This document shows, piece by piece, positions 7,993 through 58,733 of a stretch of DNA of 64,000 bases. The notes beneath the pieces were generated by a model. The model made no database searches and was not told where the DNA came from. It worked only from the letters and a program-made list of their open reading frames with translations. A program made the translations under genes and the position numbers. Origin of the DNA: Acidobacteriota bacterium (GTDB taxonomy: Bacteria; Acidobacteriota; Thermoanaerobaculia; Multivoradales; Multivoraceae); contig QQVD01000027.1 in the NCBI GenBank assembly GCA_003388555.1, positions 23,951 through 87,950 of the forward strand, in the 5' to 3' direction. The first letter of the stretch is position 1. Each line of letters opens with the position of its first letter.

Positions 7993-8026
7993 GGTTGCGG
8001 CGAGAGCACCTGGAAGGGCTGCAGCG

Positions 8027-8674: not shown

Positions 8675-8726
8675 CCGCCGAGCGGGAGGTCAGAAAGGTC
8701 GCGTGCGTCGTGACCGCGGTGTCGGC

Positions 8727-8744
8727 CTAGGTAGATCTCCCTAG
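8727..8744. promoter_or_regulatory. 18-bp near-perfect palindrome CTAGGTAGATCTCCCTAG in intergenic region
   Basis: 16/18 positions self-complementary, centred on AGATCT; lies 60 bp upstream of the 8804 ORF and downstream of the FixJ-like gene. Confidence 0.35.
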
Positions 8745-8803
8745 CCGCGTGTGCACAACTTCGGAATGGCCGTGCACCGGACGTCCCTCGTAGGCTGCCG
8801 AAG

Positions 8804-9292: not shown

Positions 9293-9334
9293 AGGCCGAA
9301 CCCCCATCGAACCAAACGACCCAGGAGTGAGCCC

Positions 9335-10291: not shown

Positions 10292-10303
10292 AGGAGGCCG
10301 AAG

Positions 10304-10762: not shown

Positions 10763-10789
10763 GCTCCCGTCGCACCGCGCCGCCTTCGA

Positions 10790-36491: not shown

Positions 36492-37230
36492 CTACGGCTC
36501 CTGCTCGCCCGGGGCGAACAGGAAGAGGTGCTGACTCGGCAGCGAGGTGACGAGTCGGCGCAGCTCGAACCCGGCCGGCAGCCACTCCTTCTTCACCTGT
36601 TCGATCGACATGCGGTGCTCTGGCCTGATCCACGCCGCGCTTTCTCCCTCGAGCCGGTACTCGACCAGGGCCGCGACGCCGTCGTGGCGCAGCGCCCGGC
36701 GCATGGCTGCGAGCATCGGCTCGGGGCGGGCGAACTCGTGGTAGACGTCGACCAGCAGGATGAGGTCGACCGACGCCGGCGCCAGCTTGGGATCGTCCAC
36801 CGCGCCGAGCACGTAGTCGATGTTCGCGATCCCCTCGGACTCGGCGAGCCGGCGGGCGATCTCGAGCATCTCGGGCTGGATGTCGACGCACAGCACACGG
36901 CCCTCGGGTCCCACCTTCGACGCCATCCTGCGGGCGTGGTAGCCGCTGCCGCATCCCATGTCGACCGCGGTGTCGCCGGGCTCGAGGGGCAGCAGGGCGA
37001 GCAGCGCCGCGGGATCCTCCTCCTCGATCCGGCTGTCGCGCTCCAGCCAGCTGGCGCCGTGGAAGCTCATCACTCCCGCGATCTCGCGCCCTGCGTAGGT
37101 GCGCTCCTCGCCGGACTGCGCGAGGAGGCTCGGAGCGAGGAGGAGCGAGGTGAGAGCGAGAGCGAGAGCGAGCGCGGTGGCGAGGCAGAGCGGGCGCGTC
37201 GTTTCGGCCGGCTGGAGACGTGGGGTCATG
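36492..37230 (-). CDS. Secreted class I SAM-dependent methyltransferase
   Basis: Signal peptide (LALALALTSLLLAPSLLAQS), SAM motif I TAVDMGCGSGYHARRMA, motif II VLCVDIQ, motif III DLILLVDVYHEF. Confidence 0.7.
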
Positions 37231-37616
37231 GTGCGCTCCTGGAGTCGTTCGGCGGTCGGGCGACCGGGTGGCTCGCCGCGCGGGGCGGCACGGCAGCGGC
37301 GTGCGGGGTCTTCCCGCAGGCTGTCCCGGGTGTGGGTGTGAGGAGGGAGCGATCGCGGCAACGAAGTTTGCCGCACGAGCCCGCGATCCCGTCGCCGACT
37401 GCAGTTCGGTGACGGCCAGCGAACGGTTGCGCCGCGGCGACCCGGACCCTCCGCGGCAGTGTGCCGGGAACAGTCGGCGGTGCCGTGGCGTAGTGTGCAC
37501 GAGATCCCGAAGGGCACGACGGCACCCCGTCGCAGCGCCGGCAGGGCCTCGGCCCGTGCCTTCGCAGCGCGACGTCGGTCCGCGCACCCCCCCAGATTCC
37601 ACCAGAGGAGTTGTCA

Positions 37617-39775
37617 TGAAAGTCGAGAACGCGGAACTTCGGACCCTTGGCGCAGGCGGGTTGCGCGCCTCGATCGCGACCCTCGTCCTGCTCGTCGCGG
37701 CGGCCAGCGCGCCGGCCCAGGAGCCGGCGGAGCTGCCGGGCCACTGGGAGGGGGCCATCGAGATCCCCGGATCGCCGCTCGCCTTCGACGTCGATCTCGT
37801 GCTCGGCGAGGACGGGGCCTGGAGCGGCGACATCTCGATTCCGGCGCAGGGCGCCAAGGACGTGCCGCTGAAGGACCTCGCGATCGATGACGGCCGCATC
37901 CGCTTCGTGATCCCGGGCGTCCCGGGCGAGCCGACCTTCGACGGCGCCATCGAGGGCGAGGAGATCTCCGGCGACTTCACCCAGGGCGGGCAGTCGCTGA
38001 GCTTCTCGATGAGCGCCGGCGAGGATCTGGGCGAGAGGGCTCGCGCGGCCCTCGAAGGCATCGACGAGTACGTCGAGAAGGTGCTCGCGACCTTCGGCGT
38101 GCCCGGCGCCGCCGTCTCCGTGGTCGCCGGCGACGAGGTGGTGCTCGAGCGCGGCTACGGGGTGCGCGACGTCGAGAGTGGCGAGGCGGTGACTGCAGAC
38201 ACGCTGTTCGCGATCGGATCGACCTCCAAGGCCTTCACCGCCTTCGTTCTCGGCACTCTGGTCGACGAGGGACTGCTCGAGTGGGACGAGCCGGTGCGCG
38301 AGTACCTGCCCGACTTCCGGCTCTGGGACGAGCACGCCACCCAGCGCCTCAAGGTGCGCGACCTGCTGATCCACAGCTCGGGGCTGCCGCGCCACGACCT
38401 GGTCTGGTACGGCTCGGACGCCAGCCGAGCCGAGCTCTTCGCGCGCCTGCGCCACCTCGAGCCGACCCGCGATCTCGGCGAGGAGTACCAGTACCAGAAC
38501 CTCATGTTCATGACCGCGGGATGGCTCGCCGAGCGCATCACCGGCAAGACCTGGGAGGAGTTGGTGCGAGAGCGCATCTTCGAGCCTCTCGGCATCGAGC
38601 GCGCGAACTTCTCGGTCGAGGAGTCCGGGCGCGACGCCGACGCCGCCACGCCGCACCAGGTGGAGGACCGCACGGCGAAGCCGGTGCCCTTCCGCAACAT
38701 CGACGCGATCGGCCCGGCCGGCTCGATCAACGCCTCGGCGACCTCGGCATCGAAGTGGATGCAGATGCTGCTCAGCGGCGGCGAGTTCGGCGGTGAGCGC
38801 CTGATCGAGTCCGCGACGCTGCGCGAGATGGTCACCAACCACATGGCGATCGGGGCCTTTCCCGAGGACCAGACCTCGATGGTGATGGGCTACGGCCTTG
38901 GCTGGGTGCTCGAGGCGCACCGCGGCAAGTTCCTAGCCCATCACGGCGGCGGGATCGACGGCTTCATCTCGTGGATCGCGATCGCGCCGCGCGAGCGCTT
39001 CGGAGTGGCGGTCTACACCAACGGCGCCGGCATGAACCCGGTGCCGACGGTGGTCGGCCGCGCCATCCTCGACCGCGTTCTCGGCCTCGCCGAGCGCGAG
39101 GAGATCGACTACCTGGCCAAGGCCGAGGAGAACCTGAAGCAGTTCGCCGAGGCGCAGGCGAAGCAGGAGGAGAGCGAGCAGGAACGGCGGATCGAAGGCA
39201 CCAGCCCGAGCCGCGCGCTGGCCGAGTACGCCGGAGAGTACGAGCACCCCGGCTACGGAGCGGTGAAGGTGACCCTCGATGGCGAGTCCCTGGCGCTGGA
39301 GTACAACGGCATGCGAGCCGGTCTCGAGCACTGGCACTACGACACCTTCAGCGCGGTGGCCCGGAACGAGAGCGAAGAGGACCTCGAGGACACCAAGATC
39401 CTCTTCCGAGCCGACGTCGACGGTCACATCGTCGAGGCGCTGGTCGCCCTCGAGCAGACCCTGCCGCCGATCGTGCTCGAGAAGGCGCCCGACGCCAGGC
39501 TCACCGATCCTGGGTACCTGCAGCGCTTCGTCGGCCGCTACCAGCTCGACGAGCAGATCGCCGTCGTCAGCCTGGCCGGCGACCGGCTCAAGGTCGCCCT
39601 GCCCGGCCAGCCGGTCTACACCCTGGAGCCCGAGCAGGGCTCCGAGTTCGCACTCGAAGGCCTGCCCGGCTTCTCGCTCGAGTTCCAGTTCGCCGAAGGC
39701 GGCGAGGAGACCGTCAGCGGTGCGCGCTTCATCCAGCCCAACGGCATCTTCGAGGCGACGCGGATCGAGGAGTAG
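37617..39775 (+). CDS. Large secreted serine hydrolase (beta-lactamase/PBP-related) with additional N- and C-terminal domains
   Basis: Signal peptide; S-x-x-K (LFAIGSTSKAFTAFVLG), YQN-like (EYQYQNLMF), HGG motif (LAHHGGGIDGF); ~720 aa, so ~300 extra residues beyond a canonical class C fold. Confidence 0.8.
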
Positions 39776-47365: not shown

Positions 47366-47659
47366 TCACCGCCCGGTGATCCCCGCGAAGCGCTCGAACA
47401 CCTGGAGCAGCTCCGTCACCTGCTGCTGACGCTCGGAATCGTCGCCGCTGCGCATGGCGTCGGCGACGCACGTCTCGACGTGGGTGCCGAGCAGCAACTG
47501 GCCGACCTTGCCGAGAGCACCGCGCACCGCGGCGATCTGGATCAGCACGTCGACGCACGGCTGGTCGTCCTCGATCATGCGGCGGATGCCGCTCAGCTGG
47601 CCCTCGGCTCGCTTCAACCGTTGCACGAGCCGTCGTGTCTCCTGCTGCCGTTGGTGCAT
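47366..47659 (-). CDS. csoR: CsoR/RcnR/FrmR-family metal-sensing transcriptional repressor
   Basis: ~97 aa all-helical; family motifs LKRAEGQLSGIRRMIEDDQPCVDVLIQIAAVRGAL (W/Cys-x... C-H-C ligand positions: C45, H70?, C74 context ...THVETCVADAM). Confidence 0.8.
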   Translation of the reverse strand: MHQRQQETRRLVQRLKRAEGQLSGIRRMIEDDQPCVDVLIQIAAVRGALGKVGQLLLGTHVETCVADAMRSGDDSERQQQVTELLQVFERFAGITGR

Positions 47660-47683
47660 TCGCGAAACCTCCCGGAGTCGACT

Positions 47684-47700
47684 ATACCCATACGGGGTAT
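47684..47700. promoter_or_regulatory. CsoR-type operator ATACCC-ATACG-GGGTAT
   Basis: Perfect 6-bp inverted arms ATACCC/GGGTAT around a 5-bp spacer, 25 bp upstream of csoR start; closely resembles the B. subtilis copZA CsoR box (ATACCCTACGGGGGTAT). Confidence 0.6.
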
Positions 47701-47987
47701 TGGTATCAACGGGTTGCCGGCGATCGCGCGGCCCGTCTGTGTCATCGGGCCACGGGCGTGGACTCGGGCCGAGCCGACGGGCGCTATGCTCGAAGGCCGC
47801 GGTGCGGTGCGAGTCCCCGTGGATGCCTCCGACTGCCCGGGTCGCGGCCGTCGCGGTCGCGGCGCCCCTCGCCGGCGCCGCGTGGAAACGGTGGAGATCA
47901 CCGCCACGACCGTGCGCGCCACGGTCGACGACGCCGGGCTTCCCGAGGGCGAAACTAGCGCTGCTGGAAGGCCGTAGGAGGTGTGCT

Positions 47988-48941
47988 GTGGCACGTCAGC
48001 TGGCACGAGAGATCATCTTCGCGATCGGCGACAACATGCGGGAGGGTCTCGAACCGCTGTTGACCAAGACCCTGGCGCCGTCGCTCTACCAGGTCTACCT
48101 GCATCGCGAGGACTACGACCGTCTGCGCACCATCTTCCCGCAGATCGAGGAGGAGGCCCGTCTGCACCTCGACCAGCAGCTCGAGCGGCTCGACCAGGAG
48201 GCGGTGCCGGTGGCGCGCAAGGTGCGTGGCAAGCTGCCCGAACGTCTGCGCGGCGGCGACGACGGCGCCCCTGTGTCGCGTCATGTGCCGGCGGAGGGCG
48301 CCTGGCACTTCCGCTTCCAGGAGGACCCCAACGAGTCGCTGGAGCCGGGCGAGATCGAGGTCGTCTCCGAGCTGGCGGTCGGCGAGCTCCCCGACTACGG
48401 AGGCGGCAGCGCCACCCAGCGCATCGCGGTGTCGACGACGCGTCGGCTCGGCCGCAGCGCGACGCGCCGCCAGAGCACCGGCGAGTCGGCGACCTCCTCC
48501 GGCGCCGAATCGGCTGACGCGGTTGCGCGGCCGGCACCCGAAGTCGACATGGACCGCACCCTCGCCTCCGCCCGGCTGGTGCCGCCGCCGCTGGTCGGCG
48601 TGCTGCGCTGGCAGGACGACGACGGCGATCACCGTTTCGAGCTCGACAAGTCCGAGATCTTCGTCGGTCGCGGCGCCGTCGACGTCTGGGTCGACGTGCG
48701 GGTGCGCAGCAAGGCCGACGTCTCCAGGCGCCACCTGCGCATCGAACGGCGGGAGCCTGAGCCGGGCGCCGAGGCCGCGCGGCGCTACTGGGTCGAGGAC
48801 CTCAGTCAGTTCGGGACCCGGCTGAACGGCGAGGAGCTCGATAGGCAGAGCCCGGTCGAGCTGCCCCCGAATGCGGTGCTCGAGCTCGCCTCCGTCCTCG
48901 AGCTGCGCTTCTCGGTGGAGCCTTCCGAGGCAGCGCGATGA
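47988..48941 (+). CDS. FhaA-like protein: N-terminal DUF3662 + C-terminal FHA domain
   Basis: GTG start after AGGAGG; N-terminus (REIIFAIGDNMREG...YQVYLHREDYDRL) resembles mycobacterial FhaA DUF3662; C-terminal FHA core (FELDKSEIFVGRGAVDVWVDVRVRSKADVSRRHLRIER...FGTRLNGEEL). Confidence 0.7.
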   Translation: MARQLAREIIFAIGDNMREGLEPLLTKTLAPSLYQVYLHREDYDRLRTIFPQIEEEARLHLDQQLERLDQEAVPVARKVRGKLPERLRGGDDGAPVSRHVPAEGAWHFRFQEDPNESLEPGEIEVVSELAVGELPDYGGGSATQRIAVSTTRRLGRSATRRQSTGESATSSGAESADAVARPAPEVDMDRTLASARLVPPPLVGVLRWQDDDGDHRFELDKSEIFVGRGAVDVWVDVRVRSKADVSRRHLRIERREPEPGAEAARRYWVEDLSQFGTRLNGEELDRQSPVELPPNAVLELASVLELRFSVEPSEAAR

Positions 48942-49029: not shown

Positions 49030-50952
49030 ATGAGCGACTCCGTGGCCGGCGAGGGCCTGCGCATCGCCTGGAAGAGCGACGTCGGCACCCAGCGCGAGGG
49101 CAACGAGGACGTCGTCGTCTGCGAGCCGGAGCTCGGCCTGTTCGCGGTGATCGACGGCGTCGGTGGCGAGGTCGCCGGAGAGCGCGGCGCCGCCGAGGCG
49201 GCCGAGATCCTGCGCCGCCGGCTGCGCCGCGAGGAGGGCTCGACCGAGCGCCAGGTGCGCGAGGCGGTAGCGCTGGCGAACAACCGGCTCTACGAGCTCT
49301 CCGAGGACGATCCGTCGCTGCGCGGCATGTCGTGCGTGTTGACCGTGGCGCTCTTGCGTGCGCAGGAGATCGTCGTCGGCCACGTCGGCGACACCCGGCT
49401 CTACCTGATCGATCAGGACGGCATGCAGAAGGTCACCAGCGACCACTCTCCGGTCGGCCAGATGGAGGAGCTGGGCGAGCTCAGCGAGGCGGAGGCGATG
49501 CGCCACCCGCGACGCAACGAAATCTTCCGCGACGTCGGCAGCGCCTGGCGGGAGCCCGACGACGCAGACTTCCTGGAGATCTACCGCCGCGACTTCCCCG
49601 GCCAGGTGGCGATGCTGATCTGCTCCGACGGGCTGACCGACCAGGTCGGGACCGCGAAGATCCTCGAGGTCGTGCGGCGGTGCGCCGGACATCCGGGCGT
49701 CGCGGTCGACGAGTTGGTTCGCCTGGCCAACGAGGCCGGTGGCAAGGACAACGTCTCGCTGGTGCTGGTCGAGGGAGAGGACTTCGCGGCCGAGGTCCTC
49801 TACTCCGAGCGAGGCGCCGACGAGCTCGGCGACACCCGCCGACTGCAGACCGGCGACGCGCACGCAGCGCGGCAGGCCGGCAGCGAGGGCGCCCGGCTCG
49901 CCGTTGCCGGGGCGTCGGTGGGAGATCCCGGCCCGCCGGCGCCGAGGCGCTCCGCTGCCGCCGCGACCCATGGCCCGAGAGGCAGTGGCGACCGGCCGGC
50001 CGCCCTGCGCGGCGCCGCGGCGGCGCGCACCTCACGAATCCGCACCGTCGCCGGGGTGGCGGCGCTGGCCGCACTGCTGCTGCTCGGCTGGCTCCTGCTG
50101 GGCAAGCCGGGTGCGCCTCCGGCGGTGGAACGTGCGGCCGATCGCGTGACCCGGCGGATCGGTCTGGGTCCGGCCTGGACCCTCGAGGTCGGCCCCGGAC
50201 GCGGCTACGAGACCATCGGCGCGGCGCTCGCCGACGCCCTCGGCGGGGATACGGTGCTGGTCGACGACGGCACCTACCGCGAGCGCCTGGAGCTGCGCTC
50301 GGGGGTCAGCGTGCGGGCACGCAACCCACGGGCGGTGGTGCTCGAGACCGCCGCCGAGAGCAGCGCCGACGATGGCGCCGCGGTGCTCGCCGAGAGGGTG
50401 CGCAACGCCCGCCTCGAAGGGATCAGCATCGCCGTCTCCGGCGAGGCGGCGTCTGGGGCAGCGGGCAGCGACGCCGGCCTGCCGGTGGCGCTGCGGTTGA
50501 TCGATGCCCGAGTCGAGCTCAGCGACCTGGAGATCTCCGGCTCCACCGATGCCGCCATCGAGGCGCTCGGCGCCGACGACAGCATCATCGTCCGCTCCTA
50601 CCTCCGCGACCACCGCGGCGCCTGCGTCCGGATCGCGCCGCGTGCCACCACCGAGGTGCTCGAGAACCTCTTCGTGCGCTGCGGCCAGGATGGATCGCAG
50701 CCGGCGATCGACGCGCGGGAGGCGATCGGAGCCGTGGTGCGAGGCAACGACTTCCGAGACAACCGGGTGGCGCTGTGGGCGGGGCTGAGGCCGCTCGAGG
50801 AGCTGCAGTTGGTCAACGACTTCGACCTCGATCCGGATCAGCAGGTGGTGTCTGGACCGCCGCTGAGGGAGCCGACGCCACCGGCCACCGACGGCGCCGC
50901 GACCGGAGCCGGTGCGGGAGGCGGCGGCGGCAGTGGAGGAGGCTCGGATTGA
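49030..50952 (+). CDS. PP2C-family Ser/Thr phosphatase fused to TM helix and extracytoplasmic right-handed beta-helix domain
   Basis: PP2C motifs (GTQREGNEDVVV, FAVIDGVGGEVAGERGA, LICSDGLTDQV, GGKDNVSLVLV) in residues 1-245; TM (VAGVAALAALLLLGWLLLG); C-terminal ~280 aa with parallel beta-helix-like repeats (GTYRERLELRSGVSVRA, ARLEGISIAVSG, VELSDLEISGS, NLFVRCG...). Confidence 0.8.
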   Translation: MSDSVAGEGLRIAWKSDVGTQREGNEDVVVCEPELGLFAVIDGVGGEVAGERGAAEAAEILRRRLRREEGSTERQVREAVALANNRLYELSEDDPSLRGMSCVLTVALLRAQEIVVGHVGDTRLYLIDQDGMQKVTSDHSPVGQMEELGELSEAEAMRHPRRNEIFRDVGSAWREPDDADFLEIYRRDFPGQVAMLICSDGLTDQVGTAKILEVVRRCAGHPGVAVDELVRLANEAGGKDNVSLVLVEGEDFAAEVLYSERGADELGDTRRLQTGDAHAARQAGSEGARLAVAGASVGDPGPPAPRRSAAAATHGPRGSGDRPAALRGAAAARTSRIRTVAGVAALAALLLLGWLLLGKPGAPPAVERAADRVTRRIGLGPAWTLEVGPGRGYETIGAALADALGGDTVLVDDGTYRERLELRSGVSVRARNPRAVVLETAAESSADDGAAVLAERVRNARLEGISIAVSGEAASGAAGSDAGLPVALRLIDARVELSDLEISGSTDAAIEALGADDSIIVRSYLRDHRGACVRIAPRATTEVLENLFVRCGQDGSQPAIDAREAIGAVVRGNDFRDNRVALWAGLRPLEELQLVNDFDLDPDQQVVSGPPLREPTPPATDGAATGAGAGGGGGSGGGSD

Positions 50953-53123
50953 GCCGCCAGCCGGCATCCGCGGCGGCCTACACCATCGGCCGCTTCGAGC
51001 TGCGTCGTCACCTGGGACGCGGCGCCATGGGGGACGTCGAGCTGGTGTGGGATCCACGCAGCGGCCGCGAAGTGGCGCTCAAGTGGATGCGTCTCGAATC
51101 CAGCGATCCGGATGCGTTGGCTGCCGAGCGTCAGGGCGCCGAGCTGCAGCGTCGCGTCGCCGAGATCGCCCCGCAGGTCGCCGGAGTCTGGGAATACGGC
51201 GAGCTCGACGACGACCTGCGCGGCAGACTGCTCTACGTGGCGATGGAGTACGTCGACGGCGTCGACCTGGTGACCGTGCTGCGCGACCAGGCTGGTAGGG
51301 CCCTGGCGCTACCGCGGGCTCTGCACATCGCCGACGAGCTGCTCAGCGTGCTGGCGACGCTGCACGAGTACGAGACCGAGATCGACGGGCGCCGCATCAA
51401 GTGCGTGCTGCACGGCGACATCAAGCCGGAGAACCTGCGCCTGCAGCCGGGCGAAGGCGGGGAGAGACTGCGCATCCTCGACTTCGGCGTCGCCAAGCAC
51501 CTGACCCTGACCCGTCAGGCGACCCGCAACCTGTTCGGTTCCTATCCCTACACGCCGCCCGAGCGGCTGCGCACCGGCATGGTCGACGAGCGCTCCGACC
51601 TGTGGGCGGCGGGGGTCATCCTCTACCAGATGCTCGCCGGCCGCTCGCCGTACGCGGCGACCTCGGCCGAGCAGCTCGAGCGCGAGCTACGCACCCGGCC
51701 GGCGACGCCCCTGGGCGAGGCGGTCGTCAGCGGGGCGTACCCAGATCCACTGTTGCGGCTGGTCGATCGCTCGCTCGCCTTCGATGCGCAGGACCGGTTC
51801 TCCTCCGCCCGGGAGATGCGCGAGGCGCTGCGTGGAGTGGAGATCTCGCCAGAAGCCGGTGCCGCCTCGCCGGCCGGCCAGCCGGCGGCTGGCAGGTTCC
51901 CGCCGTCGGCGCCGCCGACCGCCGACGAGGCCACCCGACGCACCGCGTCGACCGGCGCCTCGGAGGCAGACGACGTCGAAGCGACCCGGCGCACCGCGCC
52001 GCTCGCTCCGGTGCCCCTGCCGACTGCGGAGGCACCGCCGGGACTGCCGCCGCTGCCGGGAGTGGCGGCGCCGCCATCCTCCTCGCAGACACGGCGCACC
52101 GTGCCGCCGCCGCCACCACGCTCGAGCTCCGGCGAGACCCGCGGCCGGCGACCTGGCGCGGTGGCGCCGACGACCTCCTCCGCCTCCGGGACCGGATCCG
52201 CCGCGGCGCCGGAATCGTCGGTCACGCCGGCTCAGGCGTCCTCCACCCGCCGCACCTCGGGCCGTCGTCGCCGGCGGCTGCCGCGCTGGCTGTGGATCGG
52301 CGCCATGATCTTCCTGGTGCTGCAGTACTCCGCCCACAACGCAGCCCGCTCGGTTGTCGCCGAGGTGACGAGCGAGGCCCGGCCCGATGTCGACCAGGCG
52401 CTGTCGGCGTACCGTTTCGCTGCCCGCATGCGCCCGTTCGATCTCGGCCTGGGTGAGGCGCGCCGCGCGCTGCGCGGAGCGCTGGTCGAGTCGGCGGAGC
52501 AGGTGATCGCCGCCTTCTCGGGTGAGGCGGCGGTGCCGCGCCAACGCGACTGGCAGCAGGCCCACGAGCACCTGAGGGCCGCCATCCAGCTGGGCCGGGA
52601 CGACGACGGGGTGCGCGCCCGGCTGCACTACACGCAGGCGCACGACGATCGCATCGCGGCGCGCTCGGCGTGGAACGAACGCGACCGGGACGGCGCCCGC
52701 AACCTCTGGAACCGGTCGATCCAGGGCTTCGAGCGGGCCGCGGAGCTCGATCCGGAGTGGCCCGACCCCTATCTCGGCCTGGCGCGCATCCACGCCTACG
52801 AGGTGTTCGACCTGGGGCGCCTCGAACAGGCGCTGCGCTCGGCCCTCGGCCGCGGCTACACCTGGGCCGACCGCGAGAAGGCGCAGCTCGCGGACGCCCA
52901 CCGCACGCAGGCCCGGCGCCTGGTCTCGGACGCCGACGAGCTGCGCGGCAGCGACGTCGAACGCGAGCGCGACCTGCTGCTCGAGGCGCGCGACCACCTG
53001 GCGCTGGCGGTGTCGATGTACGAGCAGATCCCCGGCTTCGGCAACGCAGCGCAGAACCGCGATCTGGCGCGCACCGCGATCGACGAGATCGAGCAGCGGC
53101 TCGGTGGCCGGAGACGCCTGTGA
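50949..53123 (+). CDS. Ser/Thr protein kinase with TM segment and C-terminal helical (TPR-like) domain
   Basis: Gly loop LGRGAMGDV, VAIK-like VALKW, catalytic HGDIKPENL, DFG (ILDFGVA), APE-like (TPPERL); TTG start overlaps PP2C stop (TTGA); Pro/Ser/Thr-rich linker then TM (WLWIGAMIFLVL) and ~270 aa helical domain. Confidence 0.8.
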   Translation: MSRQPASAAAYTIGRFELRRHLGRGAMGDVELVWDPRSGREVALKWMRLESSDPDALAAERQGAELQRRVAEIAPQVAGVWEYGELDDDLRGRLLYVAMEYVDGVDLVTVLRDQAGRALALPRALHIADELLSVLATLHEYETEIDGRRIKCVLHGDIKPENLRLQPGEGGERLRILDFGVAKHLTLTRQATRNLFGSYPYTPPERLRTGMVDERSDLWAAGVILYQMLAGRSPYAATSAEQLERELRTRPATPLGEAVVSGAYPDPLLRLVDRSLAFDAQDRFSSAREMREALRGVEISPEAGAASPAGQPAAGRFPPSAPPTADEATRRTASTGASEADDVEATRRTAPLAPVPLPTAEAPPGLPPLPGVAAPPSSSQTRRTVPPPPPRSSSGETRGRRPGAVAPTTSSASGTGSAAAPESSVTPAQASSTRRTSGRRRRRLPRWLWIGAMIFLVLQYSAHNAARSVVAEVTSEARPDVDQALSAYRFAARMRPFDLGLGEARRALRGALVESAEQVIAAFSGEAAVPRQRDWQQAHEHLRAAIQLGRDDDGVRARLHYTQAHDDRIAARSAWNERDRDGARNLWNRSIQGFERAAELDPEWPDPYLGLARIHAYEVFDLGRLEQALRSALGRGYTWADREKAQLADAHRTQARRLVSDADELRGSDVERERDLLLEARDHLALAVSMYEQIPGFGNAAQNRDLARTAIDEIEQRLGGRRRL

Positions 53124-56100
53124 GCCACGTGGCTGCTCGGCGGAGAACGCGATGGTCGTGACCCGGCGCAGCGCCGCGCCGCAGCCGGACGCGGCGCGCA
53201 CCCGTCGGCGGGCGCCCGTGTCCGGCGCGCGCGGCGGTGGCTTCGCTGGCCTCGGTGACTGGGGCCGTGCACGTCGTCGCGAGCGCTGGGCGCTGCTGGC
53301 GATCACGCTGCTGACCGTGCTTGCGGCCCACCTGGTGACTCATCGCAGCCTCGAGCGCGCCGAGCGGACCTTCTCGGGTTGGGACGGGGGTCCCGGTGTG
53401 CCGGGGTCGGCGGAAGACGTCGCCGCCGAGACCGCGGCGGCCTCGCCGGCGAGCTCACCGCTGGACCTCAACCGCATCGAGGATGCTGGCGAGCTCGAAG
53501 CGGTTCTCGGCGCCTGGAGCGATCCCCGCGAGCGACGACTGATCGCCGAGAGCGTGCTGGCGGCGCGCGACGCCGTCGGTCCGTTCCCCAACGTCGGAGC
53601 GTTGGCCGCCCTCTCCGTCGGCGGCGAGGAGGTCGCGGGCCGCTCCTACCCGAGACTCGGGCCGCGGCTCGAGGCCGAGCTCGCGGCGCTTTCCGCCGCG
53701 GCAGGCGGCAGCGATCCCGCCGCAGCGGCGCCCGAGGTGGCTCTCTTCTCGGCCGCCGAGCTGAGGACGCTCAAGCCGCTGGTGGTGGTGCGTCAGGGGG
53801 ACTCGGTGCGCCGCCTGCTGCGCGGCTGGACCCTGCTCCTGATCGCCGCTCTGTGGAGCGTGCATCTGATCTGGACGGCGTTCGCTCCCCAGATCGACGA
53901 GGCGTTGCTGCCCGCGGCCGCGGCTCTCGTCGGTCTCGGCCTGCTGATGATGGTGGCGGTGCGCGACCCGCTGCGCGACCTGGTGCTCGCCGGTCGATTC
54001 GTCCAGGGAGCGGTCGCCGGGCTGGCGCTGTGCTGCGTCGTCGCGATGATCCCGCTGCAGCGACTGCGGCTGCAGCGACACGCTGCCTGGGCGCTGGTCG
54101 CGGCGTTCGGCCTGTCGGTGCTGCTGCTCCTCTTCGGCAGCGGTCCCGGCAACAGCGACGCCAAGGTGAACCTGTTCGGCTTCCAGCCGGTCGAGGCGAT
54201 CAAGCTGCTGGTGGCCGTGTTCCTGGCCGGTTACCTCGCCGAACGGTGGGAGCTGCTGCGCGAGGTCGAGGAGCGGCGCAGCGAGCTGCGGCCGCTCGGC
54301 AACAGACTGAGCGTGCCGCGTCTCGAGTACCTGGCTCCGCCGGCGGTCGCCATCGCGGCGGTGCTCGCCTTCTTCTTCTTGCAGAAGGACCTCGGGCCGG
54401 CGCTGGTGATCGGCGGCCTCTTCCTGATCCTCTACAGCACCGCCCGCCGCCGGGTCGGCCTCGCGCTGGCGAGCACGGCGGTGCTGCTGCTGGGCTTCTG
54501 GGTCGGCTACCTCCTGGGCGTGCCGGCGACGGTGCGCGGACGCATCGAGATGTGGTTGTCGCCGTGGAGCAGCGACTTCCGCGGCGGTGACCATCTGGCG
54601 CATTCGCTCTGGGCGTTCGGCTCCGGGGGGCTGCTCGGTCGGGGTCTCGGTCGCGGTGATGCGGGCTTCGTGCCGGAGGCCCACACCGACATGGTGCTTG
54701 CGGCCCTCGGCGAGGAGCTCGGCGCTTTCGGCGTGCTGCTGGCGCTCGGCCTGTACGCGCTGATCTGCTGGCGGGCCCTGCACGCCGTGCGGCGCGCCGC
54801 GGGTGCCTTCGGCTTCTTCCTCGGCCTCGGCCTGGTGGTGGCGATGGTGCTGCAGATCGTTCTCATCGTCGGCGGTGTGCTCGGGCTGCTGCCCCTCTCC
54901 GGCGTGGTGACGCCGTTCCTCTCCTACGGCCGCTCCTCGATGCTGGCCAACTTCGTCGCCCTGGGTGCGATCGCTTCACTGAGCGCCGCGGCGCGAGAGG
55001 GCGCGTCGGAGAGCACCGCGGTGACGGCGCTGCGCCCGGCGCTGCGTCCGATCGCCGTCGCGTTCGCGCTCGTCGGTGTGGTACTCGCCGCCCGCGTCCT
55101 CTGGCTGCAGGGCGTCGCCGCCGATCGAGTCGCCGCCCGGGCGACGTTGGCGCTGCAGGCCGATGGCGAGCGCCGCCACGCCTACAATCCTCGGCTGCTC
55201 CAGATCGCGCGGCAGATCGGGCGTGGCGCCATCGTCGATCGCAACGGCATCGTGCTGGCGACCAGTGCCCGCGGCGATCTCGGCACCCACGCCGCGATCT
55301 TCGCCGAGCTCGGACTCGACGACCTGACCCGGCGCTCGCTGCGGCAGGCCGACGAGCGGCTCTATCCCCTCGGGGGTTACGCCTTCCATCTCCTCGGAGA
55401 CCTCAATGCGCGCCGTGGCTGGGGGGCGCCGAACAGCTCCTACCTCGAGCGCGATCTGTCACCTTGGCTGCAGGGTTTCTCGGTCGCCGCGAGCGGCGTC
55501 GCCGGTGCAGGCGGCGCCGGAGGCTCCGGGACCACGGCGCCGCTCGATCACTCGCCGCTGCTTCCGCTGCTGCGCCACGGCTTCGAGTCGCGGCGCCGCG
55601 ACGTGCAGGAGCTGCTGGCGCGCGATCGCACCCTGCGCACCACGGTCGACGCCCGGCTGCAGGTGGCCGCGGCGCGTATCCTGGAGAGCGCGGTGGCGCG
55701 GGCCGACGCCCGCCGCGGCGCGCTGGTGGCGCTCGACGCGGAGACCGGCGCCGTGCTCGCTCTCGTCAGCGTGCCCTGGCCGACGCTCGACGCCGAGGAG
55801 CCTCCCCCGGACGAGGCTCTGCTCGACCGGGTGCGTTACGGCCTCTACCCGCCGGGATCGACCTTCAAGCTGGTGACGGCGATCGCTGCGCAGCGGCGGG
55901 GAGTCGGCGATCGCGAATACGTCTGTGAGCGGCTGGGGGACGGGCGGGCCGGCCAGCAGGTGCGCGGCTGGGGTCGCCCCATCCGTGACGATCCGAGGGT
56001 GCAGCGGCCTCATGGCCGGGTGGACCTGGAGCGCGGGATCGCGGTGTCCTGCAACGCCTACTTCGCGCAGCTGGCGGTCTACGACGTCGGCGCACGGGCG

Positions 56101-56619
56101 CTGCTCGAGACGGCAGCAGAGCTCGGCATCGACGTCGCGTCACCGAACACACCCGAGGCGCTCGCCGATGCGCTGCCGCAGGCGGCCTACGGTCAGGGAC
56201 AGGTCGTCGCCTCGCCGCTGGAGATGGCGCGCGTCGCGGCGACCGTGGCGACGGGCGGGCTGCTGCCCGAGGCCCACTGGGTCGAGGGTGGGGCCGAAGG
56301 GCCGGCCGCCGAGCCGCGGCGGCTGATCTCGCCGCAGGAGGCGCAGCGCCTCGCGGAGGCGATGCGCAGGGTGGTCAGCGAGGGCTCGGCGTCGCGGGCG
56401 TTGGCCGGCCTGCTGCCAGCGGTCGCCGGCAAGACCGGTACCGCCGAGGTCGCCGGCGCGCCGTCGCACGCCTGGTTCGTCGGTTTCGCGCCGTACTCGG
56501 CTGGCGGCCGCCGCATCGCCATCGCGGTGCTGATCGAGAACGGCGGCTACGGCGGTCTCGAAGCCGCTGGCGCCGCCGGACGCCTGGTGCAGGCGGCGAG
56601 CCGTCTGGGGATCCTCTGA
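53104..56619 (+). CDS. Fused SEDS glycosyltransferase (RodA/FtsW-like) - class B penicillin-binding protein (transpeptidase), single 1171-aa ORF
   Basis: No stop between domains. SEDS region (...PSEFAK-like QPVEAIKLLVAVFLAGYLA, DLGPALVIGG, TDMVLAALGEELG, LPLSGVVTPFLSYGRSSM). Then TM + PBP2-like transpeptidase with S-x-x-K (PGSTFKLV), S-x-N (SCNAYF) and K-T-G (KTGTAEV). N-terminal ~240 aa extension contains HhH-like motifs (DLNRIEDAGELEAVLG). Confidence 0.8.
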   Translation: MAGDACEPRGCSAENAMVVTRRSAAPQPDAARTRRRAPVSGARGGGFAGLGDWGRARRRERWALLAITLLTVLAAHLVTHRSLERAERTFSGWDGGPGVPGSAEDVAAETAAASPASSPLDLNRIEDAGELEAVLGAWSDPRERRLIAESVLAARDAVGPFPNVGALAALSVGGEEVAGRSYPRLGPRLEAELAALSAAAGGSDPAAAAPEVALFSAAELRTLKPLVVVRQGDSVRRLLRGWTLLLIAALWSVHLIWTAFAPQIDEALLPAAAALVGLGLLMMVAVRDPLRDLVLAGRFVQGAVAGLALCCVVAMIPLQRLRLQRHAAWALVAAFGLSVLLLLFGSGPGNSDAKVNLFGFQPVEAIKLLVAVFLAGYLAERWELLREVEERRSELRPLGNRLSVPRLEYLAPPAVAIAAVLAFFFLQKDLGPALVIGGLFLILYSTARRRVGLALASTAVLLLGFWVGYLLGVPATVRGRIEMWLSPWSSDFRGGDHLAHSLWAFGSGGLLGRGLGRGDAGFVPEAHTDMVLAALGEELGAFGVLLALGLYALICWRALHAVRRAAGAFGFFLGLGLVVAMVLQIVLIVGGVLGLLPLSGVVTPFLSYGRSSMLANFVALGAIASLSAAAREGASESTAVTALRPALRPIAVAFALVGVVLAARVLWLQGVAADRVAARATLALQADGERRHAYNPRLLQIARQIGRGAIVDRNGIVLATSARGDLGTHAAIFAELGLDDLTRRSLRQADERLYPLGGYAFHLLGDLNARRGWGAPNSSYLERDLSPWLQGFSVAASGVAGAGGAGGSGTTAPLDHSPLLPLLRHGFESRRRDVQELLARDRTLRTTVDARLQVAAARILESAVARADARRGALVALDAETGAVLALVSVPWPTLDAEEPPPDEALLDRVRYGLYPPGSTFKLVTAIAAQRRGVGDREYVCERLGDGRAGQQVRGWGRPIRDDPRVQRPHGRVDLERGIAVSCNAYFAQLAVYDVGARALLETAAELGIDVASPNTPEALADALPQAAYGQGQVVASPLEMARVAATVATGGLLPEAHWVEGGAEGPAAEPRRLISPQEAQRLAEAMRRVVSEGSASRALAGLLPAVAGKTGTAEVAGAPSHAWFVGFAPYSAGGRRIAIAVLIENGGYGGLEAAGAAGRLVQAASRLGIL

Positions 56620-56651: not shown

Positions 56652-57887
56652 ATGCAGCGAGAAGACGAGGAGAGGCGGGCGTTGGCGGCGACCGATCGGG
56701 AGCGCCCGAGCGGCGAGGACGAGGCCTCCGCGGAGCAGACCTCGGAGCCTTCCGTCGAAGACGCCGGGGAGTCGACCTCAGAGCGGCCTCCCCGGTCCGT
56801 CGCCGGCCCGCACCGGTCGTCCTCCGGCGAGAAGGAGGACGGAGGCGATCCGGGCGGCGCGGCGGATGGTGGAGGTGAGGTCGAGGTCGCCGTCGAACGG
56901 CAGGGCGCGCCGGCGTCTTCGGCCGCCGCGAGCGCCGGGTCCGGCAGCGCCGAAACACCGAGTCGGGTCGAGGGCTGGTGGCGCCGCTTCGATGCCTGGC
57001 GGTCTCGCCTGCAGCAGCCGTGGCGCAGCGGCGACTCCCTGGTCGAGCTGACGCAGGCGGTGCGTCGCGACCTCGAGAGGACCCTGGAGCCGCTGGGCGG
57101 CGGCCGGAGGGTCTTTCCCTACGCGGGGGTCGTGGTGGTCCTGCAGCCGCGCGGCCCCGAGCAGGAGACCCTCTACCGCGCTGCCCTCGCCGAAGGTTGG
57201 CAGGAGCAGCTGCGCGAAGCGGTGGTCGAGCGCCTGCACGAGGCCGGCGCCCGACTGGATCGGCTCGATCTCGAGGTCCAAGTCCAGGTCGAGGAGCCCG
57301 AAGTGGACCCGGCCGAGGGCGCTTCGAGGTCGGCCTCGCCGGGCGAGTCCGCCGACGCCGGCCCCGCCTACCGACTCGAGCTGGTGCCGTTTCGCGAGGG
57401 CGATGCGGCGCGTCGGGCAGCGTCTGCCGGCGGGGAGGGCGATCGCGAAGGCGCGGCGGGCGGCGCTGCACCGGTGGATCGGGGCGAGGCGACGCCTCTA
57501 CGTCTGGTGGTCGAGGAGGGCGCTGCGCAGCAGGACGTCTACGAGTTCGAAGGCGGCTCCTCCCCCCGCATCGCGATCGGTCGCATGCGCGACGTCTTCG
57601 ACCAGCACGGCCGGATCCGAAGGCGCAACGATCTCGCCTTCGAGGACGACGGCGAGGTCAACGGCACCGTCTCCCGCGAGCACGCGCAGATCGCCTATCA
57701 GGCCGGTACCGACGACTACTGGTTGATCGACGATCGCAGCTCGTACGGCACCCGCATCTTCCGCGACGGCCGCGCGATCGAGGTCAGCAGTCGCGACCGG
57801 CGCGGCATCCGACTGCGCCAGGACGACCGCATCTACCTGGGTCGCGCCGTGCTTCGGGTCGAGCTCGGTCCGGCCGCAGCTGGATGA
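56652..57887 (+). CDS. Second FhaA-like protein (DUF3662-like N-terminus, acidic linker, C-terminal FHA domain)
   Basis: FHA core RIAIGRMRDV...NDLAFEDDGEVNGTVSREHAQIAYQAGTDDYWLIDDRSSYGTRIF; N-terminal region (LTQAVRRDLERTLEPLGGGRRVFPYAGVVVVLQP) resembles DUF3662. Confidence 0.75.
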   Translation: MQREDEERRALAATDRERPSGEDEASAEQTSEPSVEDAGESTSERPPRSVAGPHRSSSGEKEDGGDPGGAADGGGEVEVAVERQGAPASSAAASAGSGSAETPSRVEGWWRRFDAWRSRLQQPWRSGDSLVELTQAVRRDLERTLEPLGGGRRVFPYAGVVVVLQPRGPEQETLYRAALAEGWQEQLREAVVERLHEAGARLDRLDLEVQVQVEEPEVDPAEGASRSASPGESADAGPAYRLELVPFREGDAARRAASAGGEGDREGAAGGAAPVDRGEATPLRLVVEEGAAQQDVYEFEGGSSPRIAIGRMRDVFDQHGRIRRRNDLAFEDDGEVNGTVSREHAQIAYQAGTDDYWLIDDRSSYGTRIFRDGRAIEVSSRDRRGIRLRQDDRIYLGRAVLRVELGPAAAG

Positions 57888-57920: not shown

Positions 57921-58733
57921 TCAGCGCGGCAGGCGCAGCACCTGCCCGGGTCGGATCGTCGCCGAGCGCAGCGAATTGGTGCGCTTGAGCGCGCCGACCG
58001 AGGTGTCGTGGCGCTTGGCGATCGCCCACAGGGTGTCGCCCTGCGCCACCCGGACCACGTCGGGGCGCTCGGGCTCGCCCTGCCGGAGGCGCGCCACGTA
58101 GTCCTTGTACTGGGTCGGGAAGAGGGCGACGTGGTAGTGCGGAGGGCGCGATTCGTAGGCTGCCTCGAGGACCCTGCGACCCTCGAGATGCAGCAGCACG
58201 CCTTCGAGCCAACGGCGGCAGGAGCGTGAGCGGCTGCGGCGCAGATCGATGCCCATTCCCGCCTGGTGCACCGAGTTGCGCGACGCGTTCGGCGGCTGCT
58301 CGAGCCGTGGCCGGGTCAACGAGGTGACCACCAGCTTCTCGTCGCAGGCGGCTCGGTACTGATTGGAGAGCCGCTCGATGAAGAGCACCACTTCAGGGCG
58401 AGCGTAGGGATACGAGACCCCAGAGAGCTCGAAGTTGCGGTTCGGCGAGACCCTGATGAGGTAGCCGCGATCGGCGAACTGTTTGACCTGGGTGCCGGTG
58501 CGCAGGAAGGTGAAGTCGTGGTCGCGCGCGACCTGGACCTGGCGCGACATCGCCGAGGAGCTCGGGCGCAGCGACTGCGCACCCACCGACGAGGCGAGCA
58601 GGACGAGCAGCGCCACGACCGGGAGAGCGGCGGCGATCGCGCGACGAGGCTGAGGGGATCGGCTCGGCGGCTTCATCGGCTCCAGGAGGTTCGAGCGATT
58701 CGGCAGGGAGGGCTTCGGCGACGACGAGCGCAA
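57921..58733 (-). CDS. Secreted LysM-domain protein
   Basis: Signal peptide; C-terminal LysM (VVRVAQGDTLWAIAKRHDTSVGALKRTNSLRSATIRPGQVLRLP); real start possibly the internal MKPPSRS methionine (~58676). Confidence 0.65.
   Translation of the reverse strand: MRSSSPKPSLPNRSNLLEPMKPPSRSPQPRRAIAAALPVVALLVLLASSVGAQSLRPSSSAMSRQVQVARDHDFTFLRTGTQVKQFADRGYLIRVSPNRNFELSGVSYPYARPEVVLFIERLSNQYRAACDEKLVVTSLTRPRLEQPPNASRNSVHQAGMGIDLRRSRSRSCRRWLEGVLLHLEGRRVLEAAYESRPPHYHVALFPTQYKDYVARLRQGEPERPDVVRVAQGDTLWAIAKRHDTSVGALKRTNSLRSATIRPGQVLRLPR

What the first reader, a model, noticed from the sequence alone, without database searches (positions are those of the whole stretch)
53104..56619. Single-polypeptide fusion of a SEDS glycosyltransferase (RodA/FtsW) and its class B PBP transpeptidase
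RodA-PBP2 and FtsW-PBP3 normally act as separate, cognate pairs. Here one 1171-aa ORF encodes an N-terminal HhH-like extension, a complete SEDS polytopic domain, a TM anchor, and a PBP2-like transpeptidase (SxxK PGSTFK, SxN SCNAYF, KTG KTGTAEV). No stop or frameshift separates the domains. A covalent polymerase-crosslinker is a natural experiment on SEDS-bPBP coupling and is at least uncommon.
Basis: seen in the sequence. Interest (0 to 1): 0.6.

Follow-up and report, generated by a model that had tools for sequence, protein, structure and literature searches.

The report
Natural SEDS–class B PBP fusion protein
One gene really does encode both halves of a cell-wall-building machine (glycan polymerase plus cross-linker) on a single protein, but this is a conserved gene family in Acidobacteriota and such fusions have already been described, so it is a good natural example and not a new kind of system.

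Summary
One uninterrupted ORF encodes a complete SEDS glycosyltransferase, a 19-residue cytoplasmic linker, a TM anchor, a class B PBP pedestal and a transpeptidase. All catalytic motifs are intact. The likely start is ATG 53152, giving 1155 aa and not 1171.

It is not a frameshift artefact. Codon-position GC is unbroken across the junction. The identical gene occurs in two independent assemblies. All 120 listed homologues carry both Pfam domains. 123 of the 150 best 50%-identity cluster representatives match continuously across the junction.

The gene is the fourth of a five-gene operon: FhaA-like FHA, membrane PP2C, membrane Ser/Thr kinase, fusion, FHA. About 70 of 80 Acidobacteriota genome loci keep the same order. 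Its parts list matches the actinobacterial fhaA-fhaB-pstP-rodA-pbpA-pknA-pknB cluster.

Natural SEDS-bPBP chimeras were catalogued in 2025 (PMC12516126), including one flanked by a kinase and a phosphatase. Engineered RodA-PBP2 fusions work (PMC6207328).

Verdict: a real, conserved new member of a known kind. The HhH add-on is the only part that seems undescribed. Interest is moderate to low.

The parts
47988..48941 (+). FHA protein 1 (FhaA-like). The likely start is GTG 47988. The mechanical ORF starts at 47454, but its first ~178 codons look non-coding.
   Evidence: Pfam FHA E 1.8e-9 at the C-terminus. The N-terminal part hits FhaA_N PF12401 at E 1.7e-4, 22.4 bits, below the cut-off of 25. 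AGGAGG lies upstream of GTG 47988. Syntenic in most related loci.
49030..50952 (+). Membrane-anchored PP2C Ser/Thr phosphatase with a ~270-aa C-terminal extracytoplasmic domain (weakly beta-helix-like).
   Evidence: Pfam PP2C E 5e-14. NCBIfam Stp1/IreP PP2C at 180 bits, below the 230 cut-off. Weak Beta_helix hit E 0.0065. Start inferred at ATG 49030.
50949..53123 (+). Membrane Ser/Thr protein kinase (non-RD, 'HGD') with a TM helix and a TPR-like extracytoplasmic C-terminus. The TTG start overlaps the PP2C stop codon.
   Evidence: Pfam Pkinase E 7e-32. Called as a 724-aa gene in public assemblies. The TTGA overlap and the GGAGGAGG Shine-Dalgarno sequence are seen. Weak TPR_11 hit.
53152..53286 (+). 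Fusion residues 1-45: Arg-rich, disordered cytoplasmic tail with the conserved N-terminal motif M-x-V-T-R-S-T-A-A.
   Evidence: Thr4 is present in 41 of 48 homologues. Net charge +9. pLDDT ~40.
53287..53343 (+). Extra TM helix (residues 46-64), not part of the SEDS fold.
   Evidence: Hydropathy peak. AF2 places a long helix at 35-75.
53449..53826 (+). (HhH)2 domain of ComEA/GspK type (residues 100-225), inferred to be periplasmic.
53830..53886 (+). Second extra TM helix (residues 227-245), which returns the chain to the cytoplasm before SEDS TM1.
   Evidence: Hydropathy. The FtsW alignment starts at residue ~248, so SEDS TM1 is 252-270.
53905..54993 (+). SEDS glycosyltransferase domain, TM1-TM10 (residues 252-614), with QPVE348xxK351 and PEAHTD513.
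54994..55050 (+). Cytoplasmic linker of 19 residues between SEDS TM10 and the PBP anchor.
   Evidence: Continuous in all 48 aligned homologues, with variable length of roughly 12-40 residues. No GC3 frame break.
55051..55107 (+). bPBP membrane anchor TM helix (residues 634-652).
   Evidence: Hydropathy score 2.46. AF2 helix 622-655.
55108..55716 (+). Class B PBP non-penicillin-binding (pedestal) module (residues 653-855), with RGxIxDRNG, RxYPxGG, ExxxxxxLxG and TxDxxLQ.
   Evidence: G692, D696, R697, R736, Y738, P739, E766, R767, L773, G775, D833 and L836 are invariant in 48 sequences. Pfam PBP_dimer gives only a faint hit, E 0.018. Foldseek alignments span 510-550 columns against whole soluble bPBPs; M. 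tuberculosis PBPA fits best at rmsd 5.1-5.5 A.
55717..56619 (+). Transpeptidase domain (residues 856-1155) plus stop codon: S903-T-F-K906, S966-C-N968, K1094-T-G1096.
56652..57887 (+). FHA protein 2 (411 aa), the last gene of the operon.
   Evidence: Pfam FHA E 2.4e-6. GGAGAAGG Shine-Dalgarno sequence upstream. Found immediately downstream of the fusion in about 76 of the 80 related loci; the few without it mostly end just after the fusion gene.

Best explanation
Gene 53152..56619 encodes a genuine single-chain peptidoglycan synthase. A SEDS glycosyltransferase (10 TM helices) polymerises lipid II. A 19-residue cytoplasmic linker and one TM helix tether it covalently to a complete class B PBP (pedestal plus transpeptidase) that cross-links the new strand in the periplasm. 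The fusion follows the native topology of the two-protein complex, because the SEDS C-terminus and the bPBP N-terminus are both cytoplasmic. It therefore fixes 1:1 stoichiometry and co-localisation. In front of the SEDS domain the protein carries a family-specific add-on. This add-on is a disordered Arg-rich cytoplasmic tail with a conserved Thr motif, followed by two extra TM helices that bracket a periplasmic ComEA-type (HhH)2 domain. The gene is the fourth of a five-gene operon (FhaA-like FHA, membrane PP2C, membrane Ser/Thr kinase, fusion, FHA) that is conserved across Acidobacteriota. The window organism is probably a member of the class Thermoanaerobaculia. My proposed mechanism is as follows. 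The kinase and phosphatase sense the envelope through their extracytoplasmic TPR-like and beta-helix-like domains. They set the phosphorylation state of cytoplasmic Thr residues, with the conserved N-terminal tail of the synthase as the best candidate. The FHA proteins read that state to switch or localise synthase activity, as PknB, PstP and FhaA do for cell-wall synthesis in Actinobacteria. What is shown: the gene is intact, the architecture and catalytic motifs are conserved, the folds match, and the operon is conserved. What is inferred: enzymatic activity, the periplasmic location of the HhH domain, the phospho-regulation and its target, and whether this is the main elongation synthase or an accessory one.
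Against: There is no biochemical or genetic evidence for this protein or any member of its family. The protein scores below every NCBIfam equivalog cut-off: FtsW 190 against 337.5, RodA 156 against 336.7, PBP2 161 against 455. It therefore cannot be assigned to the elongation or the division machinery. The rest of the genome was not available, so I could not check whether canonical RodA/PBP2 and FtsW/FtsI also exist. The kinase lacks PASTA domains, and the operon has one kinase, not two, in a different gene order from Actinobacteria. The regulatory analogy is therefore compositional and homology of the whole cluster is not demonstrated. Five of 80 loci keep the fusion plus FHA2 without the upstream FHA/PP2C/kinase trio. 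The phospho-acceptor site is a guess based on conservation. The HhH domain has no assigned ligand, and by eye its hairpin glycines (GIG) appear to be lost. The linker could be cleaved after membrane insertion.
Confidence: 0.8

Rival explanations
1. Assembly or sequencing artefact: two adjacent genes (a SEDS gene and a bPBP gene) were merged by a collapsed frameshift or a lost stop codon near 54950-55100.
For: The sequence is metagenome-derived, and read-level data could not be inspected. One public assembly of a relative (L083) does show the operon chopped into pieces, so indel errors occur in this kind of data, although there they split genes and do not merge them.
Against: Codon-position GC shows no phase change. 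The gene is identical in two independent assemblies. All 120 listed homologues at 45-55% identity and all 80 genome loci have the same continuous architecture. The linker aligns without interruption in 48 sequences. 123 of 150 cluster representatives match across the junction.
Confidence: 0.01
2. The fusion is the organism's housekeeping elongation synthase. Under this view it is the RodA-PBP2 orthologue in fused form, with no separate RodA/PBP2 pair, and not an additional or specialised synthase.
Against: There is no mreBCD or rlmH neighbourhood in the 64-kb window. The protein scores below the RodA and PBP2 equivalog cut-offs, and the SEDS half scores higher against the FtsW model than against the RodA model. 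The examples in PMC12516126 coexist with canonical pairs. The genome complement was not testable here.
Confidence: 0.35
3. The polypeptide is a precursor. The short cytoplasmic linker is cleaved after membrane insertion, so the working enzyme is an ordinary non-covalent SEDS-bPBP pair and the fusion only guarantees co-translation and 1:1 stoichiometry.
For: The linker varies in length and sequence (roughly 12-40 residues). A minor fraction of the engineered E. coli RodA-PBP2 fusion is cleaved (PMC6207328, supplementary figure S5 legend).
Against: No conserved cleavage motif is visible in the linker alignment. Engineered fusions work uncleaved. No protease gene is part of the conserved operon.
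Confidence: 0.08
4. One or both halves are catalytically inactive or act on a polymer other than peptidoglycan, so the protein is a scaffold or sensor within the kinase module and not a synthase.
For: The protein falls below all equivalog cut-offs. It carries unusual add-on domains. It sits inside a signalling operon.
Against: The core catalytic residues of both active sites are invariant across 48 sequences at ~50% identity, including D513, S903/K906, SCN and KTG. Only E348 (44 of 48) and K351 (40 of 48) vary slightly. Both folds are complete.
Confidence: 0.04

Closest known systems
Natural 'bifunctional class B' SEDS-TPase chimeras catalogued from InterPro (PMC12516126, Microlife 2025): Rhodococcus jostii 947 aa (GTase-pedestal-TPase), Senegalimassilia faecalis 931 aa, Pedobacter ginsengisoli 1341 aa (flanked by a Ser/Thr kinase and a phosphatase)
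   Same: PF01098 and PF00905 lie on one chain in the order GTase, then pedestal, then TPase, as in R. jostii. Kinase and phosphatase neighbours are present, as for P. ginsengisoli.
   Different: This family is acidobacterial and ~1100-1150 aa long. It has recognisable class B pedestal motifs, whereas the Pedobacter protein is described as lacking a pedestal. It also carries an N-terminal module of two TM helices plus an (HhH)2 domain, and a fixed five-gene operon with two FHA proteins. Neither feature is mentioned in the passages of that paper I read. The paper's supplementary protein list was not available, so I could not check whether acidobacterial members are already listed.
Engineered RodA-PBP2 fusion of E. 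coli (GGGS x3 linker; PMC6207328; structure PMC10449877) and the SpoVE-SpoVD fusion of B. subtilis
   Same: The connectivity is the same: SEDS C-terminus to bPBP N-terminus through a short cytoplasmic linker. The engineered versions are functional in vivo and in vitro.
   Different: Those fusions are artificial. This one is natural and evolutionarily fixed, and it has extra N-terminal domains.
Actinobacterial fhaA-fhaB-pstP-rodA-pbpA-pknA-pknB cluster (M. tuberculosis Rv0014c-Rv0020c)
   Same: The parts list is the same: two FHA proteins (one with a sub-threshold FhaA_N hit), a PP2C phosphatase, a SEDS protein, a bPBP and a membrane Ser/Thr kinase. The PBP half is structurally closest to M. 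tuberculosis PBPA.
   Different: Here the SEDS and bPBP genes are fused, there is one kinase and not two, the kinase ectodomain is TPR-like with no PASTA domains, the phosphatase has a large ectodomain, the gene order differs, and the host is a diderm phylum.
Class A PBPs (bifunctional GT51 + TPase)
   Same: One polypeptide carries both glycan polymerase and transpeptidase activities.
   Different: The glycosyltransferase here is an integral-membrane SEDS fold, not the soluble GT51 fold. A class B pedestal is present.
ComEA / GspK / PsbU extracytoplasmic (HhH)2 domains
   Different: There is no significant sequence-family hit. The domain has net charge -5 in the window protein and a family median of +2. 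By eye, the canonical GIG hairpins are not conserved. Here the domain is inserted between two TM helices of a cell-wall synthase.

Membership tests
SEDS (FtsW/RodA/SpoVE, PF01098) | Sequence match above the Pfam gathering threshold | tested here: met
   190.9 bits against a cut-off of 26.4, covering profile positions 8-354 of 356.
SEDS (FtsW/RodA/SpoVE, PF01098) | Complete 10-TM SEDS fold | tested here: met
SEDS (FtsW/RodA/SpoVE, PF01098) | Catalytic Asp in the P-E-x-H-T-D motif, and the Q-P-x-E-x-x-K motif | tested here: met
   PEAHTD513 aligns with PEAHTD of P. aeruginosa FtsW and PERHTD of E. coli RodA. D513 is invariant in 48 of 48, E348 is kept in 44 of 48 and K351 in 40 of 48.
SEDS (FtsW/RodA/SpoVE, PF01098) | Lipid II glycosyltransferase activity | not testable with these tools
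   Requires biochemistry.
FtsW equivalog (TIGR02614) / RodA equivalog (TIGR02210) | Score above the NCBIfam equivalog cut-off | tested here: not met
   FtsW 190.3 against 337.5; RodA 156.0 against 336.7. The protein is therefore not filed as either.
Class B PBP | Transpeptidase domain with SxxK, SxN and KTG | tested here: met
Class B PBP | N-terminal TM anchor followed by a non-penicillin-binding (pedestal) module with class B motifs (RGxIxDRNG, RxYPxG, ExxxxxxLxG, TxDxxxQ; motif definitions recalled from the Goffin and Ghuysen classification) | tested here: met
   TM helix at 634-652. Motifs at 691-699, 736-742, 766-775 and 831-837 are invariant or nearly so.
Class B PBP | Pfam PBP_dimer (PF03717) or PBPA_dimer (PF21922) above threshold | tested here: not met
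   PBP_dimer gives only E 0.018, 15.9 bits against a cut-off of 24.4. PBPA_dimer gives no hit. The pedestal is divergent at the sequence-profile level.
PBP2/MrdA equivalog (TIGR03423) | Score above the equivalog cut-off | tested here: not met
   160.7 against 455.
Natural SEDS-bPBP chimeras ('bifunctional bPBP', PMC12516126) | SEDS GTase domain and bPBP TPase domain in the same protein | tested here: met
Actinobacterial-type FHA/PstP/RodA/PbpA/Pkn cell-wall signalling cluster | Co-operonic FHA protein(s), PP2C, Ser/Thr kinase, SEDS and bPBP | tested here: met
   The arrangement is conserved in about 70 of 80 loci.
Actinobacterial-type FHA/PstP/RodA/PbpA/Pkn cell-wall signalling cluster | PASTA-domain kinase (PknB type) | tested here: not met
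   No PASTA hit. The C-terminus gives only weak TPR hits.
Actinobacterial-type FHA/PstP/RodA/PbpA/Pkn cell-wall signalling cluster | FhaA architecture (FhaA_N + FHA) | tested here: inconclusive
   FHA1 N-terminal part: FhaA_N E 1.7e-4, 22.4 bits, below the cut-off of 25. FHA2: no N-terminal hit.
Actinobacterial-type FHA/PstP/RodA/PbpA/Pkn cell-wall signalling cluster | Phosphorylation of the synthase, or FHA binding to it | not testable with these tools
   Only a conserved Thr motif in the cytoplasmic tail is available.
ComEA-type (HhH)2 domain | Two helix-hairpin-helix motifs forming the five-helix (HhH)2 fold | tested here: met
ComEA-type (HhH)2 domain | Sequence-family membership and DNA-binding hairpins (GIG) | tested here: not met
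   No HhH Pfam family reaches E < 0.01; only T2SSK at E 0.019. There is no significant PDB sequence hit. The hairpin glycines are not evident in the alignment (judged by eye).

The most novel reading that the evidence does not exclude
The acidobacterial family may be a distinct, self-contained class of cell-wall synthase. In this reading, the covalently fused SEDS-bPBP is switched on and off by its own dedicated kinase/phosphatase/FHA module through the conserved N-terminal Thr tail. Its periplasmic (HhH)2 domain, a fold otherwise used to grip DNA or polymers outside the cytoplasm, would bind the nascent or template glycan strand (or an activator). That would replace MreC/RodZ-type or FtsQLB-type activation. 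If so, it would be a minimal, regulatable SEDS machine in a diderm phylum.
Probability: 0.15. Interest if true: 0.65.

Novelty: new member of a known kind. Interest (0 to 1): 0.35.

Why it matters
How SEDS polymerases are coupled to their bPBP partners, and how they are activated, is an active question in cell-wall biology. Researchers have had to engineer RodA-PBP2 fusions to study this. A natural fusion that has been fixed over long evolutionary time, and exists in hundreds of sequence variants, offers three things. It gives ready-made material for structural and biochemical work. It gives a deep alignment for covariation analysis of the SEDS-pedestal interface. It also gives a built-in hypothesis about regulation by Ser/Thr phosphorylation outside the Actinobacteria. 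One carrier, Occallatibacter savannae AB23, is cultured. The limits are that the concept of such fusions is already published, that the protein is annotated generically in NCBI, and that nothing here contradicts current models.

Tried and rejected
1. Frameshift or assembly artefact: rejected.

2. GTG 53104 as the start codon: rejected in favour of ATG 53152.

3. Assigning the SEDS half to FtsW or RodA and the PBP half to PBP2 or FtsI through NCBIfam: every score is far below the equivalog cut-offs, so no assignment was made.

4. Sequence-level identification of the N-terminal domain: Pfam gave only noise-level hits, and a PDB profile search gave nothing significant. Only the fold search resolved it.

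5. A profile search of the HhH domain against 5.8 billion proteins returned only 13 short ORFs. One that I checked lies in a chopped-up copy of the same operon. This gave no evidence that the domain occurs in other architectures, although the word-index pre-filter limits that conclusion.

6. The AFDB fold search, intended to list named UniProt fusions, was unavailable.

7. The supplementary table of PMC12516126, which lists the chimeras, is not held.

8. Literature searches for this operon in Acidobacteria found nothing specific.

9. A search for a second SEDS or bPBP gene in the window found none.

10. The context of a distant Rhodothermales fusion is different: a kinase is nearby, but no FHA or PP2C gene was called. 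The five-gene operon is therefore not universal for all fusions.
Full report
**Observation**

The window has ~72% GC. The ORF 53104..56619 (+) exists as described and translates to 1171 aa from GTG. Pfam places FTSW_RODA_SPOVE at 273-630 (E 4e-56) and Transpeptidase at 872-1157 (E 5e-38) on the same chain. A sequence search of the PDB matches the first half to P. aeruginosa FtsW and to E. coli and T. thermophilus RodA. It matches the second half to T. thermophilus PBP2, M. tuberculosis PBPA and many PBP3 structures.

**Start codon**

GTG 53104 lies inside the 3' end of the upstream kinase gene, whose stop is TGA 53121-53123. ATG 53152 has GGAG 6 nt upstream. The database copy of this protein (P0001, 100% identical, 1155 aa) starts at that ATG. 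Homologue N-termini align from that Met with a conserved M-x-V-T-R-S-T-A-A motif. I therefore take the gene as 53152..56619, 1155 aa, and use that numbering below.

**Is the fusion real?**

- GC at third codon positions stays at 0.80-0.98 in the ORF frame along the whole gene.
- The identical gene (0 mismatches) is present on contigs from two separate ENA assemblies: ERZ869936 (84 kb, coverage 16) and ERZ869938 (195 kb, coverage 19).
- All 120 listed homologues (45-55% identity, ~1050-1170 aa) carry both Pfam domains.
- All 80 loci fetched from species-representative genomes encode the SEDS and PBP parts contiguously.
- In a 48-sequence alignment, the linker between SEDS TM10 and the PBP anchor is short, variable and never interrupted.
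- In an exhaustive HMMER scan of 1.84 billion cluster representatives, 123 of the 150 best hits have one continuous match crossing the junction.

The artefact hypothesis is effectively excluded, although I could not inspect the reads themselves.

**Anatomy**

Hydropathy, the residue-level alignment to FtsW and RodA and an AF2 model (pLDDT 84.7, pTM 0.80) give the following layout:

| Residues | Feature |
|---|---|
| 1-45 | Disordered, Arg-rich tail (net charge +9), taken as cytoplasmic |
| 46-64 | Extra TM helix |
| ~100-225 | Folded domain |
| 227-245 | Second extra TM helix |
| 252-614 | SEDS TM1-TM10, with QPVE348xxK351 and PEAHTD513 |
| 615-633 | Cytoplasmic linker |
| 634-652 | bPBP anchor TM helix |
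| 653-855 | Pedestal |
| 856-1155 | Transpeptidase |

The SEDS N- and C-termini are cytoplasmic in all solved structures. It follows that the 100-225 domain and the whole PBP part must be periplasmic. This is an inference, consistent with the positive-inside distribution.

Pfam's PBP_dimer model barely registers on the pedestal (E 0.018). The classical class B motifs are nevertheless present and invariant or nearly so: RGxIxDRNG at 691-699, RxYPxGG at 736-742, E766-R-x5-L-x-G775 and TxDxxLQ at 831-837. The motif definitions come from my recollection of the Goffin and Ghuysen classification.

D513, S903, K906, S966-C-N968 and K1094-T-G1096 are invariant in 48 of 48 sequences. Both active sites are therefore under purifying selection.

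**The N-terminal extension**

A separate AF2 model of residues 100-225 (pLDDT 91.4) matches:

Three of these (ComEA, GspK, PsbU) are extracytoplasmic (HhH)2 modules. Sequence methods see nothing significant. The domain has net charge -5 in this protein and a family median of +2. By eye, the GIG hairpins are not kept. DNA binding is therefore doubtful and the ligand is unknown.

A profile search found this domain only in short ORFs, and the one I inspected lies in a fragmented copy of the same operon. About a third of the top cluster representatives (48 of 150) cover this domain. Others carry different N-terminal add-ons. One example is a 1307-aa Rhodothermales protein, for which one fragmentary cluster member is annotated as containing a carboxypeptidase-like regulatory domain.

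**Context**

The gene is the fourth of five co-directional, tightly spaced genes:

- an FHA protein (likely 47988-48941, whose N-terminal part hits FhaA_N just below threshold);
- a PP2C phosphatase with a TM helix and a weakly beta-helix-like ectodomain (49030-50952);
- a Ser/Thr kinase with a TM helix and a TPR-like ectodomain (50949-53123; its TTG start overlaps the phosphatase stop codon);
- the fusion;
- a second FHA protein (56652-57887).

tblastn of these proteins against the 80 related loci shows the same order, FHA1-PP2C-STK-fusion-FHA2, in about 70 of them. These loci span Thermoanaerobaculia, Holophagales, Bryobacterales, Acidobacteriaceae (including the cultured Occallatibacter savannae AB23), Solibacter and others. 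Five loci keep only the fusion plus FHA2.

The window organism itself is not among the representatives. Its best synteny, including the downstream DUF5715-LysM gene, is with Ca. Multivoraceae and related Thermoanaerobaculia. There is no second SEDS or bPBP gene in the window.

**Mechanism**

The parts list equals that of the actinobacterial fhaA-fhaB-pstP-rodA-pbpA-pknA-pknB cluster, in which Ser/Thr phosphorylation and FHA readers control cell-wall synthesis (PMC3989709). I therefore propose that the acidobacterial operon is a self-contained, phospho-regulated peptidoglycan synthase module. The most plausible phospho-acceptor and FHA docking site is the disordered cytoplasmic N-tail, where Thr4 is conserved in 41 of 48 sequences. 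This step is inference.

The connectivity itself is compatible with activity. The engineered E. coli RodA-PBP2 fusion restores rod shape and polymerises lipid II, and a SEDS-bPBP fusion works in B. subtilis sporulation (PMC6207328).

The protein falls below all NCBIfam equivalog cut-offs for FtsW, RodA and PBP2. I cannot say whether it is the housekeeping elongation synthase or an accessory one, because that needs the rest of a carrier genome.

**Comparison with what is known, and novelty**

Natural SEDS-TPase chimeras have been published. PMC12516126 (Microlife 2025) retrieved 117 such InterPro proteins and named them putative bifunctional class B synthases. It showed examples from Rhodococcus, Senegalimassilia, Paraphotobacterium and Pedobacter. 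The Pedobacter example is flanked by Ser/Thr kinase and phosphatase genes.

The kind is therefore known, and this protein is in NCBI under a generic FtsW/RodA/SpoVE name. Three points seem not to have been described in the passages I could read or in my literature searches:

- the size and taxonomic coherence of the acidobacterial family;
- its fixed five-gene operon with two FHA proteins;
- the module of two TM helices plus an (HhH)2 domain in front of the SEDS domain.

I rate it a new member of a known kind. A specialist would find it useful and not surprising.

**Verdict**

Interest is 0.35. The most novel reading that remains open is a minimal SEDS machine with its own phospho-switch and a glycan- or activator-binding periplasmic HhH domain. 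I give that reading about 15% probability.

Noticed in passing
window 47454-48941 (+): The mechanical ORF for the first FHA protein is 495 aa, but its first ~178 codons translate to Ser/Arg/Cys/Trp-rich sequence that looks non-coding. GTG 47988, with AGGAGG upstream, gives a 317-aa FhaA-like protein (sub-threshold FhaA_N hit plus FHA).
   Followed up: partly
window 49030-50952 and 50949-53123 (+): Both the PP2C phosphatase and the Ser/Thr kinase are membrane proteins with sizeable conserved ectodomains (weakly beta-helix-like and TPR-like). The kinase is non-RD (HGD) and has no PASTA domains. Its TTG start overlaps the phosphatase TGA stop (TTGA), which suggests translational coupling.
   Followed up: partly
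L026, L052, L063, L070, L079 (related genome loci): These five loci keep the fusion gene and the downstream FHA gene but have no FHA1/PP2C/kinase trio within 10 kb upstream. The operon has therefore been broken or rearranged in some lineages.
   Followed up: no
L013 5551-9671: A Holophagales locus carries two tandem copies of the kinase gene upstream of the fusion, reminiscent of the pknA/pknB pair of Actinobacteria.
   Followed up: no
L084 (Rhodothermales, GCA_002425155.1) 8001-11924: A distant 1307-aa SEDS-PBP fusion (41% identity over residues 247-1154) has a different N-terminal add-on and a different neighbourhood: a short Pkinase gene, caspase-like Peptidase_C14/FGE-sulfatase genes and DUF4384, with no FHA or PP2C gene called.
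   Followed up: partly
L083 (GCA_037975565.1) 6001-10116: The same operon appears chopped into separate ORFs: N-extension 214 aa, SEDS 444 aa and transpeptidase fragments. This is either a frameshift-rich assembly or a decaying copy. It is the source of the short hits to the HhH-domain profile.
   Followed up: partly
window 57921-58733 (-): A DUF5715 + LysM protein with a weak Peptidase_M74/MepA-like hit lies convergent to the operon and is probably a peptidoglycan-binding hydrolase. It is syntenic at 62-64% identity only in a Ca. Multivoraceae locus (L037) and an Acidobacteriota locus (L064), which hints at the taxonomic position of the window organism.
   Followed up: partly
window 37220-39775 (+): An 851-aa protein with a Beta-lactamase-family (PF00144) domain and DUF3471. 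It is a serine hydrolase of the penicillin-recognising superfamily, 13 kb upstream of the synthase operon. No link to the operon was examined.
   Followed up: no
   Followed up: no
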